In this document: positions 57,301-63,300 of the stretch, piece by piece | How positions within the stretch are numbered: position 1 is the first letter of the stretch | How the letters are laid out: each line of letters starts with the position of its first letter | NCBI RefSeq assembly: GCF_000027125.1 | Contig: NC_017626.1 | Direction: 5' to 3' (one strand) | Length of the DNA: 64,000 bases | Origin: Escherichia coli 042 | Lineage (GTDB): Bacteria > Pseudomonadota > Gammaproteobacteria > Enterobacterales > Enterobacteriaceae | Program-made: the position numbers

Positions 57301-60300
57301 GTGCAGACCATTGCGCCGTCAGGAACGGTTTCAGTGAATTTGATATTGCCGTGTTCGTCGAGACGGATAACCAGGGTGCGTCCGTCCCCGTGAATCATTT
57401 TGTCGGGAGACGGGGCGTTATTCTGGCGCAGTTCTGCTTCCATGCGGTCGAACTCAGCAATGTATGCCTCTTTAAATGCAGCGGCTTTTTTGCCAGTGAA
57501 GCCCATCACCAGGAAAACGAAGCCGTTTTTGGTGATTTGGTACATTGGGAGTTTGCGCCCGGTTGAGTCGGTGTATTCGCTTGACACAAAATTGTGCTCA
57601 GTGAATTTTGCTGAACAGTCCAGATTGCGAATTTTATCCAACACTCGTTCGTGGCGTTTGCCAAAGAACTCGGCGATCGCAACAGACGTAGTGACAGCGC
57701 GACCATTTTCGATGGTTACGTCAGGGTGAGAAAGGGTAAGGATAGTAGCCATGATGGCAGCCTCCGCGATGAATTTGATTAACTCACCACCGAGGTTTTC
57801 CACGACCATAAGGGTGGTGAGACGTACAGGGGTGGAAATACCGGTCATCACGGAACCCGGCCAGCCTTGCGGCTGCCCTGCACGCCCCACCATAATGCGA
57901 ATGTGGCTGTGCTTAACGCATAAAAAAACCGCCTGAGCGCGGTTATGCGCCGTGAATGATTTCGGGTTTCCACGCCCGGCACCCGTTTTATGAGGTGCAG
58001 GTGCACTATAATTCCACCCGTTCTGGTTTTCAATAGCTACATTCAACATTTTCTCTACCTTTCATCACCGAAGTGAACTTTGTTGATGCGGTGCCTGGTG
58101 CCTCCAGGTGACGTTAACCAGTTAACAATTAACGTCGGATACAGAGCATTCCCGTTACGCCCGTAAAAGACCGCTTGTTTTAACTGTTCCGCGTGCGCTG
58201 AGCCGCATTCACCGCATCACAAAATTCACTTTAAAAAGGGCGGCAGAGCAGTCACGGAGTAGAACTGATACCGCCAAAAGTCACCAGAAAATTGATAACA
58301 GAGGGCGTTGCAGCGGAGTTGTCACTTAAGCGTATGGTCAACCTGACAACCCGGTGTCCTCAGCGGGGAAGGAATAACCCCGCCATACTTACCGCCGCGC
58401 CATTTCGCGGATTGCCACAACCGGAAGCGCACGGTCGAACTAAATTTAACGACACCGTACAGAGAGACCAATTTCGCCGTGCGCTTTCGCGTTATGCCCT
58501 GACTTTTCAGGGACATATCCTTTCAGTAAACTGTCAGTGCCGGATGCTCACCCGTGTCCGGCGCACGCACTCCACCTGACCCGTGGAGAACTCCTTAATT
58601 ACCAACCCTCAGGAGGGTGAAATGGATAAAAAGCAAATTGAGGCCCTGCAATCTATTATTGAAAAACAAGATGAAGCTATCAGGATTCTTTCATATCGCA
58701 CTGATATGATACTAAATATGCTTTCTGCATTAACGGCTGCGCTTGGTGGTACAAAAACAAACGTATACCGCGAAGTTGTTATTCAACAGATAGATAAATT
58801 TGAAAAAACCATACCAGGTATTAATGCTCATCTTGCAGAACAAGAGAAAGACCATGCTCTTATGGCAATTTCTTCAGTAGCTCTCCCGAAAGTTGAGTAG
58901 TTTTAATTGTTGTTTTGAAATAATCACTGCTTTCACATTTGAGTGATTTCATGGCAATCCAAATGCGGGCCACTGTGCCTGCATTTGGTTCCAGTTGCTG
59001 TAGACGTTTTGCGTCTTCCAAAAGTAAGGCGATAATGTGTTTCAGCTTCTCATCATTTGCTTGATTCTTGTTTTCAGGCGAATTCTGTCCGCCGAATAGG
59101 CGCTTCTCTTCATACAGACCTATAAAGGCACGACGCACGTTACCGGATATAGTATCGATGGTTTCCTTTTCTACAGTACTCAGGTCAAGAGTCGCCAGTT
59201 GAGAGCGAACCACATTCGCTGCCATTTCCTGGAATGGCATTGGTAAATCTTTAAATTCCATTATTAGCCTCGTTGGTTAGCTATTAACGTGGGTATGTAA
59301 CCATTCTGGCAATGCTTAATGCCGCTGCTTTTTCCAGCCTGGTGATATCCTGCTCCAGAGCGGACAGATTTTCAGCCTGCTTAGTCCTGGCTTCATTGGC
59401 CCATTTCAGATCCTGCACTGCATTAATTTTCTGGCGCATCCACTCATAAAGTTCATCATCGGTATAGTCTGGCGCGATGATGACGGGTTCTCGTTTCTGC
59501 ATACTGATTCCTCGCGGTGCTGTTTCGCTTATCAGCCGTTAGATTTTCCCGAACTGGAAAGCGCCTGTTTAAATTCACTGAAGCTGAGAGCTTCTTCGCC
59601 TTCGGCAAGACCATCGAAGTATTCTTCGTAAGCCTTTTCCATGATTGTGTCGAAATCCATATCACTCACCTGAGTTTCTTTCCAGCCAGCGACGGGCACC
59701 ATTTTCGGTTTTAAACGTTTTGCTTTTGGTATACGTCATCGCGGTGAATGTGCCGTCCTGGTTGGGAAACACGCCGTACACCAGAGATTCGTTGTTGCCA
59801 AGCTCGATAGTATCCATGCTGACCTCATTTCCCCTTAACGCCGGGTGGCGGAACTAAAACCTACAGCGCCGTGCTGTTCTTGATAGAAATATTAGTAACG
59901 CGGATATTTTAAGTCAACAGTATGGCGTATGATATTTTTGATTTGGTAACTATGTAAATGTTTTTTCAAGGGAAAAATATTAGTTATACAGCTGATTTGC
60001 AGAAGTTATGGCACAAAAAAACCGACTAAGACGTCGGTTTTTTTGTTGTGGATGGGGTAGTGAGCGGTGGCTACTGGTTACGTTTCTTTAGTGCCAGCAT
60101 GTTCTCGAAGGCTTCCTCGTAGAGCTTGTTTAGTCCACGTAGCTGGTTAAGGAGTTTGGCTTTTTCTGACGCAGGTAGAATCTCGAAGAGGTTAAGTAAC
60201 TCTGCCTGTTCTTCATTGACCAGCCTCCATCCTTTGCCTGAAAAGTTATCATCATAAGTATCTGATGATCTTACATAATTCATTAAGTCTTTAAGGTCTT

Positions 60301-63300
60301 CTCGAATGTCCTCTGGTTTTACCTTTAACAGAGCCGCAAATTTTAGCGCAGCGTCGGTATTTACCGGTATCTTGCCGTTCAGATACTGGCTAACGGTGCC
60401 TTGAGATTCGAATCCCAACAACTCAGCCGCCAGCTCTTGAGTCAGCTTCAGCTCTTTTTTTCTTGCATTCCATGCGGCTTTTAAATTCTTGCTCGCTTCT
60501 GGAGTTGCAATCACTTCGCGTGTTTTTTTCATACATAGAGTTTATTTGTTTTACCAATATTATCAAAGATAGTCTGGCTATTGATCTTTAAAATTAGCGG
60601 GGCTAATATTTGCTCGAGGCATAACGTAGAAGGTTGGCTATGAACTTAAGAGACTATTTAAAAGAGAAACATATCACCCAGCTACAGTTTGGGAAGCTAA
60701 CGGGTTTATCTCAGGTGCATGTAAGTCGAGTGCTGGGGGGCTATGAAAGATTCAGCCCTGAAAAAGCATTACGTGTTGCTGAAGTAACGAATTTCGAGGT
60801 TACACCTCATGAACTCCGGCCTGATATTTACCCGAATCCAACCGACGGCTTACCTGTTGGATTCAAGGCTAACACACCAAATGCATCGGAGTTGATTCAT
60901 GAAAATCAGGCATGAGCACATCCGCATGGCGATGAATGCCTGGGCGCATCCGGACGGTGAAAAAGTTCCGGCAGCTGAAATAACCCGGGCTTATTTTGAG
61001 CTTGGTATGACGTTCCCGGAATTATATGACGACAGCCATCCGGAAGCCCTGGCTCGCAATACCCAGAAAATTTTCCGCTGGGTGGAGAAAGACACTCCTG
61101 ATGCGGTTAAAAAAATTCAGGCGTTGTTACCAGCGATCGAAAAAGCAATGCCGCCTCTGCTGGTGGCCCGAATGCGCAGCCACAGTTCAGCTTATTTTCG
61201 GGAGCTGGTGGAGACGCGGGAACGACTGGTGAGAGACGCTGATGATTTTGTCGCAGTGGCGATCGCTGGTTTCAACCAGATGAATCGTGGTGGCCCTGCA
61301 GGAAATATTGTGGCTGTGCATTGACTCGCAATATTCATACCGGATCACTTCCGGCAATTTGTGAGTAAAAAGATTCGGTATCAGAAGAGGTGAGTATGGC
61401 TAACGCCTGGCTCAGATTATGGCATGACATGCCAAATGACCCTAAGTGGCGAACAATTGCCAGGGTGTCAGGGCAGCCAATTGCAACAGTGATGGCAGTG
61501 TATATCCACCTTCTGGTGAGCGCGTCACGAAATGTCACGACATGTCACGGCGTGTCACTACGTGGTCACATTGATGTCACGACGGAAGATTTAGCAAGTG
61601 CGCTTGATGTGACGGAAGAAGTAATTGATTCAATTTTACAGGCAATGCAGGGGCGGGTACTTGATGGAGATTTAATCACCGGATGGGAAAAACGCCAGGT
61701 ACTGAAAGAGGACAATGGCAACGTTTCACAAACCGCGAAATCCCCGGCAGAGCGCAAGAGAGCGCAGCGCGAGAGGGAAAAATTACGAAAACAGAATGAG
61801 GGGTGTCACGACGAGTCACGCATATGTCACGACATGTCACGACGAGTCACGACAGATAAAGATACAGATAAAGAATTAAACCCCACACATAACGCGCACG
61901 TGCGCGAGAGTGCTCCGACCAGTGAGTCGAGTGGTACGCCGTTGCAGGCAGCAGAACCTGCATCCCTGGATGGACTGAGCGAACCCATCGGGAAATTTCC
62001 GATGGTCGATGACTGGCATCCGTCGCCGGATTTTCGACGACGGGCTGCGTTGTGGGGGATGGCTTTGCCGGAGCCGGAATTTACACCTGCTGAACTTGCC
62101 GCTTTCCGGGACTACTGGGCAGCGGAGGGGAAAGTTTTCACGCAGGTTCAGTGGGAGCAGAAATTCGCCCGTCACGTAAATCACGTCAGGGCGCAGGTTA
62201 AGCCAGTCAGCAAGGGGGTAAACCATGCAGCAGCACCAGGTGGCACCGCATCACGGGCAGTTCAGGAAATTCGGGCAGCACGTGAGCAGTGGGAACGTGA
62301 AAACGGATTTATCAGCGACGGAAACGGTCTGGAAGCTGTGGGAACTCATGGGGGAGGTTTATTCGAACCGCTGGACCCAGAAGAACGGGGCCGCACCTTC
62401 GAAGCTCTGGATTGCACAGATTGGCGCGATGACTGAGCAGCAAATCCGACAGGTCTGCCGCCAGTGCATGGACCGCTGCCGGGCGGGTGAAACATGGCCT
62501 CCGGACCTGGCTGAGTTTGTGGCGCTGATTTCAGAAAGCGGGGCCAATCCATTTGGCCTGACGGTGGATGCTGTGATGGAGGAGTACCGCCGCTGGCGTG
62601 ATGAATCCTGGCGATATGACGGAAGCGACAAATATCCGTGGCCTCAGCCTGTGCTGTACCACATCTGCCTCGAAATGCGTACCAGAGGGATTGAGCGCCA
62701 GATGACGCAGGGTGAGTTAAAACGACTTGCGGAACGGCAACTGACGAAATGGGCAAAGCATGTTGGTAACGGGATGAGTGTTCCGCCAGTGCGACGACAA
62801 CTGGAAGGGGCGAAACACCCGCAAGGGCCAACGCCAATTGAACGGCTGAAACAGGAATACGAACGCCGGAAGGCAGCTGGTTTTATTTGAATCTGAGAAA
62901 CGATTTTGTCGGAGGAAATTTTAATGGAAACCGTATTTGACGCACTGAAAGCAATGGGAAAAGCCACATCGGTAGAACTGGCCGCGCGACTTGATATCAG
63001 TCGTGAAGAGGTTCTCAACGAGCTGTGGGAACTCAAAAGAAATGGCGTCGTTGATAAAACTGGTCACACCTGGTTTCTGGCTGGCGAAGGTGAATCCCGG
63101 GTAACCGAAGAGCGGCCAGTAAAATCTGAAGCACAGGATATGCTGACCGGGGAGGTCGAACAAAAAGTTACCGCAGACATGATGATTGAGTTTATCGGTC
63201 AGGATGGTGCTAAAACGTGTGAGGAACTGGCGGGTAAGTTCGGCGTCAGTACTCGCAAGGTTGCCTCCACGCTGGCGGTGGTAACCGCAACGGGGCGGCT

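What the first reader, a model, noticed from the sequence alone, without database searches (positions are those of the whole stretch)
60071..61324. Immunity region combining a DicA-like repressor with Cro-like and YdaT-like genes
A DicA/RacR-like repressor is divergent from a Cro/YdaS-like HTH gene, which is translationally coupled to a YdaT-like gene. In Rac, loss of RacR derepresses ydaS/ydaT and is lethal. This element pairs a DicA-type repressor with that module, so the repressor may be conditionally essential to the host (an addiction-like arrangement). The operator region has an imperfect palindrome, tcaaagat-N12-atctttaa.
Basis: partly seen in the sequence, partly recalled or inferred. 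Interest (0 to 1): 0.45.

Follow-up and report, generated by a model that had tools for sequence, protein, structure and literature searches.

The report
Ordinary lambdoid prophage immunity switch
This is the standard lysis-lysogeny control region (repressor, Cro-like and CII-like genes) of a lambda-type prophage inserted beside ompW in E. coli; the same region occurs in over a hundred sequenced strains, so it is ordinary, not a new addiction module.

Summary
They are a 153-aa repressor (60071-60532, minus strand), a divergent 91-aa Cro/YdaS-like HTH gene (60640-60915) and a YdaT-family gene (60899-61324) that overlaps it by 17 nt.

The repressor is distantly DicA-like over its full length but unrelated to RacR. 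Its N-terminal domain also resembles lambda CI. It has no S24 peptidase domain.

The YdaT-like protein is 97% identical to PDB 3C4R. It is about 85% identical to CP-933P YdaT, a characterised CII-like activator that showed no toxicity when tested. It is only 32% identical to the toxic Rac YdaT. A footprinted "YdaT-box" motif lies exactly over its start codon.

It is no better than chance and is not conserved in relatives. It coincides with the back-to-back -35 hexamers of PRM and PR. A better operator candidate is a 21-bp pseudo-palindrome over the -10 of both PR and PL.

The repressor/cro/ydaT triad is conserved in all relatives examined, and Qin itself keeps a remnant of it. The left operon carries DicF and dicB. 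In the closest complete genome the prophage looks full-length.

The repressor is therefore probably essential in the lysogen, but for the generic reason that applies to any prophage repressor.

The parts
60071..60532 (-). Prophage repressor (CI analogue), 153 aa. It has an N-terminal XRE/lambda-CI-like HTH domain and a short DicA-like C-terminal helical domain. There is no S24 peptidase domain.
   Evidence: ORF. Pfam HTH_3 at residues 23-75, E 1.9e-9. NCBIfam DicA 35 bits, below the cutoff of 101. hhalign versus K-12 DicA gives probability 94.9% over 117 columns. Lambda CI N-terminal domain in PDB, E 3e-4 to 1e-3. 99% identical to 'dicA' of phage Rac-SA53.
60640..60915 (+). Cro analogue, a YdaS-family HTH protein of 91 aa. 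The ORF listing starts it at the TTG at 60634.
   Evidence: Pfam YdaS_toxin E 3.2e-7 and HTH_3 E 1.2e-6. PHROG 35. 32% identical to K-12 YdaS over 50 aa, with no similarity to DicC. PGAP names it 'YdaS family helix-turn-helix protein'.
60899..61324 (+). CII analogue, a YdaT-family (POU-like HTH) tetrameric regulator of 141 aa.
   Evidence: PHROG 163 'CII-like transcriptional activator', E 2.5e-45. Pfam YdaT_toxin. PDB 3C4R E 3e-91 and 8BT1 (CP-933P YdaT) E 4e-79, both full length. 32% identical to Rac YdaT.
60892..60909 (+). YdaT-box TTGATTCATGAAAATCAG. The ydaT ATG lies in its 6-nt spacer.
   Evidence: It is the only match in the window to TTGATT-N6-AATCAA at up to 1 mismatch. The position and the CATGAA spacer are the same as in the DNase-footprinted Rac box ATGATTCATGAAAATCAA (PMC11879457) and the CP-933P O_M site (PMC9986795). 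It is conserved in Rac, Rac-SA53 and L007.
60581..60609 (+). Predicted PR promoter: TTGATC, 17-nt spacer, TAATAT.
   Evidence: Read from the sequence. The -35, the spacing and the -10 are kept in all relatives, except that the L008 -10 is degenerate (AATGAT). It scores 8 of 12, so the 9-of-12 scan missed it.
60539..60566 (-). Predicted PRM promoter: TTGATA, 16-nt spacer, TAAACT. The -10 ends 6 nt before the repressor ATG, so the repressor mRNA is predicted to be leaderless.
   Evidence: Promoter scan. A -10-like hexamer lies exactly 6 nt before the ATG in 6 of 6 relatives. The same is known for lambda cI and was shown for CP-933P paaR2 (PMC8630535).
60590..60610 (.). Candidate operator OR1, AAAATTAGC-GGG-GCTAATATT. 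It overlaps the PR spacer and -10.
   Evidence: It is the best palindrome in the spacer. It and OL1 are the only two matches in 64 kb to AATATTAGY-N3-RCTAATATT at up to 3 mismatches. The Rac-SA53 substitutions fall on the degenerate and central positions.
60565..60585 (.). Candidate weak operator OR2, AAAGATAGT-CTG-GCTATTGAT. Its centre is 25 bp from OR1.
   Evidence: It matches 12 of 18 consensus positions and keeps the TAGT-N3-GCTA core. This is inference only.
60541..60561 (.). Candidate operator OR3, TTTATTTGT-TTT-ACCAATATT. It overlaps PRM, with its centre 24 bp from OR2.
   Evidence: It matches 14 of 18 consensus positions. In relative L010 the equivalent site is 19 of 21 identical to that phage's PL operator.
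60563..60591 (.).
   Evidence: Found. It is not above chance (52% of shuffles) and is not conserved. Its arms overlap the -35 hexamers of PRM (60561-60566) and PR (60581-60586).
60013..60046 (.). Bidirectional intrinsic terminator after the repressor gene. It has perfect 14-nt arms flanked by A and T runs.
   Evidence: Inverted repeat I1; sequence.
59889..59917 (-). Predicted PL promoter: TTGACT, 17-nt spacer, TAATAT.
   Evidence: Promoter scan. It is conserved in Rac-SA53 and L007 and resembles PR.
59888..59908 (.). Candidate operator OL1, AATATTAGT-AAC-GCGGATATT. It overlaps the PL -10.
   Evidence: All three exact AATATTAG octamers in the 64-kb window flank the repressor gene, at 59888, 59976 and 60603.
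59662..59817 (-). ydfA-like gene (DUF1391), the first gene of the leftward (PL) operon. It is followed by ydfB and ydfC (59284-59502).
58238..58289 (-). DicF small RNA in the PL operon.
   Evidence: Rfam RF00039, 71.5 bits against a gathering score of 48, full length.
56996..57184 (-). dicB, a cell-division inhibitor, in the PL operon.
   Evidence: ORF. PGAP names it 'cell division inhibition protein DicB' in the 99%-identical genome.
61396..62890 (+). Replication genes downstream of ydaT: an O-like gene with a DnaT-like domain, then a lambda P-like gene (about 62429-62890).
   Evidence: PHROGs 1408, 3992 and 109. NCBIfam DnaT domain. PGAP annotation.

Best explanation
This is the immunity (lysis-lysogeny switch) region of a lambdoid prophage integrated next to ompW. 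The model has four parts.

**Maintenance.** The 153-aa repressor plays the role of lambda CI. It is made from a leaderless PRM transcript. As a dimer it binds about 21-bp pseudo-palindromic operators over the -10 regions of PR and PL. This silences two operons:
- the rightward operon: cro-like gene, ydaT, O, P and onwards;
- the leftward operon: ydfABC, DicF, an Rha/Ant insert, dicB, ydfD, exo, xis and int.

**Switching.** The 91-aa YdaS-family protein plays the role of Cro and is the counter-repressor.

**Establishment.** The YdaT-family protein plays the role of CII. As a tetramer it binds the YdaT-box that spans its own start codon. It then activates a leftward, otherwise silent promoter, so that repressor is made during establishment of lysogeny.

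**Induction.** The repressor has a DicA-type C-terminal domain instead of an S24 peptidase domain. Induction is therefore expected to go through an antirepressor or through bistable switching, not through RecA-stimulated self-cleavage.

**Shown here:**
- gene order and family assignments;
- presence and position of the YdaT-box;
- conservation of promoter geometry;
- clustering of the operator-like motif.

**Inferred:** operator identity, the leaderless mRNA, the regulatory logic and the induction route.
For: - **Gene order.** It matches lambda cI-cro-cII-O-P, with a PL operon and a terminator between the repressor gene and PL.
- **YdaT.** It is about 85% identical to CP-933P YdaT and 97% identical to 3C4R. 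CP-933P and Rac YdaT were shown to bind TTGATT/ATGATT-N6-AATCAA at the ydaS/ydaT junction and to activate a reverse promoter for the repressor (PMC9986795; PMC8630535; PMC11879457). The same box lies at 60892-60909 with the ATG in its spacer.
- **Repressor.** It is homologous to DicA over its full length. Its N-terminal domain is lambda-CI-like. DicA and DicC form a CI/Cro-like bistable switch that is relieved by an antirepressor, Rem (PMC10448788).
- **Promoters.** PR is TTGATC-17-TAATAT and is conserved in relatives. A PRM -10 lies 6 nt before the ATG in 6 of 6 relatives.
- **Operator motif.** The two best matches in 64 kb lie over the PR and PL -10 regions. All three AATATTAG octamers flank the repressor gene. 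PR and PL share phage-specific spacer sequence in relatives.
- **Synteny.** The triad is conserved in relatives with 58-71% identical repressors.
- **Prophage integrity.** The closest complete genome (99.0% identical over 20 kb) shows a roughly 55-kb prophage with lysis, terminase, head and tail genes.
- **Frequency.** The identical 1.6-kb region is present in at least 137 complete E. coli genomes.
Against: - Nothing here is experimental for this particular repressor.
- The operator consensus was derived from the same sites it then scores. The OR1 palindrome alone is not significant (19% of shuffles). The window's own PR/PL 21-mer match is only 15 of 21 (p about 0.12).
- No antirepressor specific for this repressor was identified. 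Rem survives only as a 26-aa remnant in the related prophage, and there is no LexA box in the prophage part of the window.
- No good -10/-35 for a P_RE-like promoter was found on the minus strand within cro.
- The window ends 2.7 kb beyond ydaT. Whether this copy of the prophage is intact rests on a related genome.
Confidence: 0.85

Rival explanations
1. The locus is an addiction-like toxin-repressor module. The Cro/YdaS-like and YdaT-like proteins are toxins in their own right, and the DicA-like repressor is kept because losing it kills the host.
For: In K-12, racR is essential, and silencing it derepresses ydaS-ydaT with toxic effects (PMC5700377 and PMC5700373, abstracts). Rac YdaT expression causes filamentation and death (PMC11879457). 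Overexpression of CP-933P YdaS causes growth defects. Pfam still names the two families as 'toxins'.
Against: - The YdaT here is of the CP-933P type, for which no toxicity was detected. It is only 32% identical to Rac YdaT.
- YdaS and YdaT were shown not to be a bona fide toxin-antitoxin pair (PMC5917428).
- There is no antitoxin-like protein-protein neutralisation in the architecture.
- Loss of the whole prophage removes repressor and targets together, so there would be no post-segregational killing.
- The same repressor also controls DicF and dicB, and in the related genome a complete lytic programme. Those would be lethal regardless of YdaS and YdaT.
Confidence: 0.08
2. The element is a defective, domesticated prophage like Qin or Rac. 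Its regulators now serve the host: the repressor silences DicF and DicB as conditional division regulators, and YdaT acts on host promoters such as rcsA. It is no longer a phage life-cycle switch.
For: Rac YdaT binds and activates host rcsA (PMC11879457). The Qin DicA/DicC/DicBF system behaves as a host-integrated bistable module (PMC10448788). The window shows only the left 11 kb of the prophage. A partial dicB copy and an inserted Rha module show that the PL operon has been rearranged.
Against: The closest complete genome has intact int, xis, O, P, Q, holin, lysozyme, terminase, portal, capsid and tail genes, with duplicated ompW ends. Phage Rac-SA53, which has a 99% identical repressor, is deposited as a complete phage genome. 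No binding sites in host genes were examined here.
Confidence: 0.07

Closest known systems
CP-933P immunity region of E. coli O157:H7 (paaR2-paaA2-parE2 / ydaS / ydaT)
   Same: The rightward module is the same: a Cro-like YdaS followed by a YdaT that is about 85% identical (PDB 8BT1). The YdaT inverted repeat sits at the end of the cro-like gene. The repressor is predicted to be leaderless, and neither repressor has an S24 domain.
   Different: The repressor is unrelated: PaaR2 there, a DicA-like protein here. There is no paaA2-parE2 toxin-antitoxin pair downstream of the repressor here. The cro-like gene differs apart from its 3' end.
Qin dicA-dicC-ydfX / dicBp-ydfABC-dicF-dicB locus of E. 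coli K-12
   Same: The repressor architecture is the same, an XRE HTH plus a short DicA C-terminal domain (hhalign 94.9%). The left operon is the same: ydfA, ydfB, ydfC, DicF, dicB, ydfD. In both loci a cro-position gene overlaps a YdaT-family gene by 17 nt.
   Different: The repressors are only about 28% identical, and the NCBIfam DicA score is far below cutoff. The DicA operator Oc (TTGTTAGTCATAACTAACAA) is absent. The cro-like gene is YdaS-type, not DicC-type. YdaT is full length here but truncated (YdfX) in Qin. Rem is not intact in the related prophage.
Rac racR-ydaS-ydaT locus of E. coli K-12
   Same: The layout is the same. A YdaS-family Cro analogue is present. The YdaT-box has the identical CATGAA spacer over the ydaT start codon.
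   Different: RacR is unrelated to this repressor. YdaT is only 32% identical. In Rac, ydaS and ydaT do not overlap.
Phage Rac-SA53 (KU052037) 'dicA-dicC' region
   Same: The repressor is 99% identical, and the OL, OR and cro-like gene are 97% identical at the DNA level.
   Different: Similarity stops at window position 60922. Rac-SA53 carries a Rac-type YdaT and different replication genes. The left operon there is kilR/racC-type rather than ydfABC-dicF-dicB.
Bacteriophage lambda cI-cro-cII
   Same: Shared features are the gene order, divergent PRM and PR, a predicted leaderless repressor mRNA, a possible three-site OR with 24-25 bp spacing, and a repressor N-terminal domain detectably similar to the lambda CI N-terminal domain.
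   Different: There is no S24 self-cleavage domain. The CII analogue is an unrelated POU-like tetramer that binds an inverted rather than a direct repeat (PMC9986795).

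Membership tests
DicA family repressor (NCBIfam NF007257 / PRK09706) | N-terminal XRE-type helix-turn-helix domain | tested here: met
   Pfam HTH_3 at residues 23-75, E 1.9e-9.
DicA family repressor (NCBIfam NF007257 / PRK09706) | Short DicA-type C-terminal helical domain, with full-length collinearity to DicA | tested here: met
   BLASTP gives 38% identity over the last 42 aa. hhalign of the family profile against DicA gives probability 94.9% and E 4.7e-8, aligning residues 24-153 with 15-133.
DicA family repressor (NCBIfam NF007257 / PRK09706) | Score at or above the curated family cutoff (101 bits) | tested here: not met
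   35.1 bits. It is a distant relative, not a DicA subfamily member by NCBI's criterion.
DicA family repressor (NCBIfam NF007257 / PRK09706) | DicA operator Oc, TTGTTAGT-N4-ACTAACAA | tested here: not met
   No match in the window at up to 3 mismatches. The immunity specificity is different.
DicA family repressor (NCBIfam NF007257 / PRK09706) | No RecA-cleavable S24 peptidase domain | tested here: met
   The protein is 153 aa with no PF00717 hit. More distant homologues of the N-terminal domain do carry PF00717.
RacR | Sequence homology to K-12 RacR | tested here: not met
   No BLASTP hit. hhalign probability 1%.
YdaS / Cro-like HTH (Pfam PF15943) | HTH domain matching the family, in the first position of the PR operon | tested here: met
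   PF15943 E 3.2e-7 and HTH_3 E 1.2e-6. 32% identical to K-12 YdaS. PGAP names it 'YdaS family'. Repressor activity was not tested.
YdaT family (CII functional analogues; Pfam PF06254, PDB 8BT1) | Full-length homology to a structurally and functionally characterised YdaT | tested here: met
   8BT1 E 4e-79 over residues 2-141, and 3C4R E 3e-91. PHROG 163 E 2.5e-45.
YdaT family (CII functional analogues; Pfam PF06254, PDB 8BT1) | Cognate inverted repeat TTGATT-N6-AATCAA at the cro/ydaT junction | tested here: met
   11 of 12 match at 60892-60909 with the ATG in the spacer. It is the only hit in 64 kb. Compare.
YdaT family (CII functional analogues; Pfam PF06254, PDB 8BT1) | Activation of a leftward P_RE-like promoter that drives the repressor | not testable with these tools
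   No consensus-like promoter was found on the minus strand in cro. That is expected for an activator-dependent promoter, so a reporter assay is needed.
Type II toxin-antitoxin / addiction module | A toxin neutralised by direct binding of a labile antitoxin, giving post-segregational killing | not testable with these tools
   Nothing in the architecture suggests it. The literature on the closest homologues rejects a toxin-antitoxin relationship for YdaS and YdaT (PMC8630535; PMC5917428).
Lambdoid immunity region | Order of repressor, cro, cII-analogue, O and P, with divergent promoters and a separately repressed PL operon | tested here: met
.
Lambdoid immunity region | Repeated repressor operators shared between OR and OL | tested here: inconclusive
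   The motif clusters strongly and PR and PL share sequence in relatives. However, the consensus is self-derived, overlaps the conserved -10 TAATAT, and the window's own PR/PL match is 15 of 21.

The most novel reading that the evidence does not exclude
This small repressor family, found in Enterobacterales prophages, may be a domain-swap hybrid. It joins a lambda-CI-type DNA-binding domain, whose nearest relatives are S24-bearing CI proteins of Stx2a phages, to a DicA-type C-terminal domain. If so, a lambda-like tripartite switch has been rewired from SOS cleavage to antirepressor control or to SOS-independent bistable control. The partner could be an as-yet unidentified antirepressor. One candidate is the C4/IsrK-controlled Rha/Ant module that sits in this copy's own PL operon, which would create a positive feed-forward loop on derepression.
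Probability: 0.2. Interest if true: 0.4.

Novelty: new member of a known kind. Interest (0 to 1): 0.15.

Why it matters
It matters little beyond annotation.
- The Pfam-derived 'toxin YdaT' and 'YdaS toxin' names should not be read as a toxin-antitoxin or addiction system here. The genes are the Cro and CII analogues of a common E. coli prophage.
- The analysis gives a concrete, testable operator and promoter map for one uncharacterised immunity type: the OR1 and OL1 21-mers, a leaderless PRM transcript and the YdaT-box.
- It points to DicF, DicB and the lytic genes as the likely source of any lethality on loss of the repressor.
- The conserved 38-bp junction around the YdaT-box illustrates how lambdoid immunity modules are reshuffled.

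Tried and rejected
- **RacR relationship.** Rejected by BLASTP and hhalign.
- **DicC relationship of the cro-like gene.** No similarity was found. The 'dicC' label in KU052037 is positional.
It is at chance level and is not conserved.
- **DicA operator Oc.** Absent.
- **LexA/SOS box.** The only CTGT-N8-ACAG in the window is at 36690, in host DNA.
- **Rem antirepressor.** Only a 26-aa remnant is present in the related prophage, outside the window.
- **A naturally truncated repressor (P0021) as a test of dispensability.** The whole locus in that assembly is fragmented into short ORFs, probably through assembly frameshifts, so it is uninformative.
- **Sub-threshold Rfam search of 59600-61500.** Only weak hits anchored on the terminator hairpin were found.
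- **Recognition-helix versus operator covariation across five relatives.** No clean rule emerged.
- **A literature search for 'Rac-SA53'.** It found no paper describing that phage's regulation.

Full report
**1. What is in the sequence**

The window is E. coli chromosome.
- From about 52.8 kb to the right end it carries a lambdoid prophage inserted next to ompW.
- In the closest complete genome (99.0% identical over window 44000-64000) the prophage is about 55 kb and is bounded by an ompW remnant. Its annotated genes there are int, xis, exonuclease, the region under study, O- and P-like replication genes, a Q-type antiterminator, holin, lysozyme, terminase, portal, capsid and tail genes.

The three ORFs are present as described.
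- The repressor is at 60071-60532 on the minus strand and is 153 aa.
- The HTH gene is at 60634/60640-60915 on the plus strand.
- A 141-aa gene is at 60899-61324 on the plus strand and overlaps the HTH gene by 17 nt.
- The ATG at 60640 lies 6 nt after AGAAGG and is the start PGAP uses. The TTG at 60634 has no room for a ribosome-binding site.
- A GGAG lies 8 nt before the ydaT ATG.

The 1.6-kb region is 100% identical in many complete E. coli genomes, including ABU 83972, ML35 and VR50. At least 137 genomes hold 80% or more of it.

**2. Family assignments**

*Repressor.*
- Pfam finds only an HTH_3 domain, at residues 23-75.
- The NCBIfam DicA model aligns end to end but scores 35 bits against a cutoff of 101.
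- BLASTP against K-12 DicA finds only the last 42 residues, at 38% identity.
- A profile of nine family members aligns with DicA over 117 columns, with hhalign probability 94.9% and E 4.7e-8.
- Against RacR there is nothing: probability 1%.
- The N-terminal domain is also detectably similar to the lambda CI N-terminal domain (PDB 3KZ3 and 1LMB).
- That domain is 50% identical to the N-terminal half of CI proteins of some Stx2a phages. Distant homologues of this kind carry an S24 peptidase domain.
- The protein therefore looks like a CI-type DNA-binding domain joined to a DicA-type C-terminal domain, with no self-cleavage domain.

*Cro-like gene.*
- It hits Pfam YdaS_toxin and HTH_3.
- It is 32% identical to K-12 YdaS over 50 aa and has no similarity to DicC.

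*YdaT-like gene.*
- It hits PHROG 163, 'CII-like transcriptional activator', with E 2.5e-45, and Pfam YdaT_toxin.
- It is 97% identical to PDB 3C4R and about 85% identical to 8BT1, the CP-933P YdaT.
- It is only 32% identical to Rac YdaT.

**3. What the literature says about the closest homologues**

- CP-933P YdaT is a tetramer with POU-like HTH domains. It binds TTGATT-N6-AATCAA at the end of ydaS (PMC9986795).
- In vivo it activates a P_RE-like leftward promoter. [quoted passage not shown]
- Rac YdaT footprints on ATGATTCATGAAAATCAA, with the ydaT ATG in the spacer, and from there activates a reverse promoter for racR. The two YdaT proteins cross-bind each other's sites (PMC11879457).
- The window has TTGATTCATGAAAATCAG at 60892-60909, with the ydaT ATG at 60899. 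It is the only match in 64 kb at up to 1 mismatch. The same box sits over the ydaT start in Rac, Rac-SA53 and a diverged E. coli relative.
- Jobling's letter (PMC5917428) already made two general points. YdaS and YdaT are Cro and CII analogues. [quoted passage not shown]
- For Qin, DicA and DicC act as a CI/Cro-like bistable switch, and DicA is relieved by the antirepressor Rem, not by RecA (PMC10448788).

**4. The combination is not unusual**

- Diverged full-length relatives of the repressor were examined. They are 58-71% identical and come from E. coli L007, Serratia L008, Hafnia L010 and the metagenomic contig L012.
- All of them sit about 105 bp from a divergent cro-sized HTH gene followed by a YdaT_toxin-family gene.
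- In Qin itself, dicC overlaps ydfX by 17 nt, and YdfX is 36% identical to the N-terminal 95 aa of this YdaT. It is a truncated family member.
- The same repressor occurs with two YdaT subtypes. About 254 genomes hold the OL-repressor-OR block, but only about 137 hold it with this ydaT.
- Phage Rac-SA53 has the 99% identical repressor with a Rac-type YdaT.
- DNA similarity to Rac-SA53 stops at window position 60922. Similarity to other phages that share ydaT and O begins at about 60885.
- The mosaic joint is therefore the conserved 38 bp that holds the SD, the YdaT-box and the first eight ydaT codons. This segment is identical in L007 even though its YdaT is of the other subtype.

**5. Promoters and operators**

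- The arms are at 60563-60570 and 60584-60591. They match 7 of 8 and are separated by 13 nt.
- 52% of dinucleotide-preserving shuffles of the 107-nt spacer contain something at least as good.
- It is not preserved in relatives.
- Its arms overlap two -35-like hexamers that point outwards: TTGATA for PRM (60566 to 60561) and TTGATC for PR (60581-60586). That accounts for the symmetry.

*Promoters.*
- PR reads TTGATC-17-TAATAT (60581-60609). This arrangement is kept in the relatives.
- PL reads TTGACT-17-TAATAT (59917 to 59889).
- The PRM -10 (TAAACT, 60544 to 60539) ends exactly 6 nt before the repressor ATG. A -10-like hexamer occupies the same position in 6 of 6 relatives.
- This predicts a leaderless repressor mRNA, as in lambda cI and as shown for CP-933P paaR2.

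*Operators.*
- The best operator candidate is a 21-bp pseudo-palindrome. OR1 is AAAATTAGC-GGG-GCTAATATT (60590-60610) over the PR spacer and -10. OL1 is AATATTAGT-AAC-GCGGATATT (59888-59908) over the PL -10.
- These are the only two matches in 64 kb to the derived consensus at up to 3 mismatches.
- All three exact AATATTAG octamers in the window flank the repressor gene.
- Weaker sites lie at 60565-60585 and 60541-60561. They would give centre spacings of 25 and 24 bp, as in a lambda-type tripartite OR.
- Substitutions in Rac-SA53 fall at the degenerate and central positions.
- In relatives, PR and PL (or OR3 and PL) share phage-specific 21-mers at 17-19 of 21 positions.

*Caveats.*
- The consensus is self-derived.
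- It overlaps the conserved -10.
- The window's own PR/PL match is only 15 of 21.
- OR1 alone is not significant.
- The operator map is therefore a hypothesis.
- The Qin DicA operator Oc is absent, so the immunity specificity differs.

**6. What the repressor controls, and the 'addiction' idea**

- A perfect 14-bp-arm terminator (60013-60046) ends the repressor transcript.
- PL then drives ydfA, ydfB, ydfC, a hypothetical gene, the DicF sRNA (58238-58289; Rfam 71.5 bits), a partial dicB, an inserted Rha/Ant module, dicB (56996-57184), a ydfD-like gene, exo, xis and int.
- DicF and DicB are established division inhibitors.
- PR leads through cro, ydaT, O and P. In the related genome it continues to Q and the lysis and morphogenesis genes.
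- Loss of the repressor would therefore very probably be deleterious. That is the normal property of a prophage repressor, and it does not depend on YdaS or YdaT being toxins.
- The closest characterised YdaT was not toxic.
- Loss of the whole element removes the repressor and its targets together, so there would be no post-segregational killing.

**7. Induction route (unresolved)**

- The repressor has no S24 domain.
- There is no LexA box in the prophage part of the window.
- Rem is only a 26-aa remnant in the related prophage.
- The Rha/Ant ORF in the PL operon is preceded by Rfam C4 and isrK RNAs. This is an arrangement like P1 immI or Gifsy-1 isrK-anrP.
- ABU 83972 has the identical immunity region without this insert, so the insert is accessory.

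**8. Verdict**

- The palindrome detail and the RacR comparison are not supported.
- The interpretation over-reads Pfam's 'toxin' names.
- The locus is a common, unremarkable lambdoid immunity switch. Its repressor is a new but minor member of the DicA-like, non-cleavable class.
- Interest is low (0.15).

Noticed in passing
window 57195-58049 (-), with RNAs at 57810-57897 (-) and 57922-57998 (-): Rfam C4 antisense RNA (81.9 bits) and isrK (67.7 bits) lie inside the 5' third of the 284-aa 'Rha family' ORF, which PGAP and several PHROGs treat as one protein. A GGAGG and an ATG near 57751 would give a Rha/Ant protein of about 185 aa. This looks like a P1 immI-type (c4-ant) or Gifsy-1 isrK-anrP-type antirepressor module, and the long ORF is probably over-called. 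It is inserted between DicF and dicB next to a partial dicB copy. It is absent from ABU 83972, which has the same immunity region.
   Followed up: partly
window 58238-58289 (-): A full-length DicF sRNA (Rfam 71.5 bits) lies in the leftward operon under the repressor, upstream of dicB (56996-57184).
   Followed up: partly
window 60885-60922: This is a mosaic joint. DNA similarity to phage Rac-SA53 ends at 60922, and similarity to phages that share ydaT and O begins near 60885. The shared 38 bp (SD, YdaT-box and first 8 codons) is identical even in a relative with the other YdaT subtype, so the regulatory site may act as a recombination linker.
   Followed up: partly
window 60581-60586 and relatives L007, L008, L010 and L012: The PR -35 hexamer TTGATC contains a GATC (Dam) site. 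It is strictly conserved in all six relatives compared. Some relatives also have TTGATC at PL.
   Followed up: no
window 59818-59877 (-): The leader between PL and ydfA is nearly identical in relatives whose operators have diverged. It contains a terminator-like hairpin, ACAGCACGGCGCTGT followed by AGGTTTTAGT. It could be an attenuator or an antitermination site.
   Followed up: no
window 59976-59996: A third AATATTAG half-site lies just inside the repressor terminator, 88 bp from OL1. It has no convincing symmetric partner (13 of 18). It might be a distal OL site or mean nothing.
   Followed up: no
window 10650-10715 and 11186-11251 (+); 27383-27943 (-): The host part of the window holds two rdlD antitoxin RNAs (ldr/rdl type I toxin-antitoxin repeats). 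It also holds two RtT RNAs interleaved with two tRNA genes.
   Followed up: no
window 61390-62890: The mechanical ORF list shows a 221-aa ORF (62225-62890) that overlaps the O-like gene by about 210 nt. PGAP starts the lambda-P-like gene at about 62429 (153 aa), which overlaps the end of O by only 8 nt.
   Followed up: no
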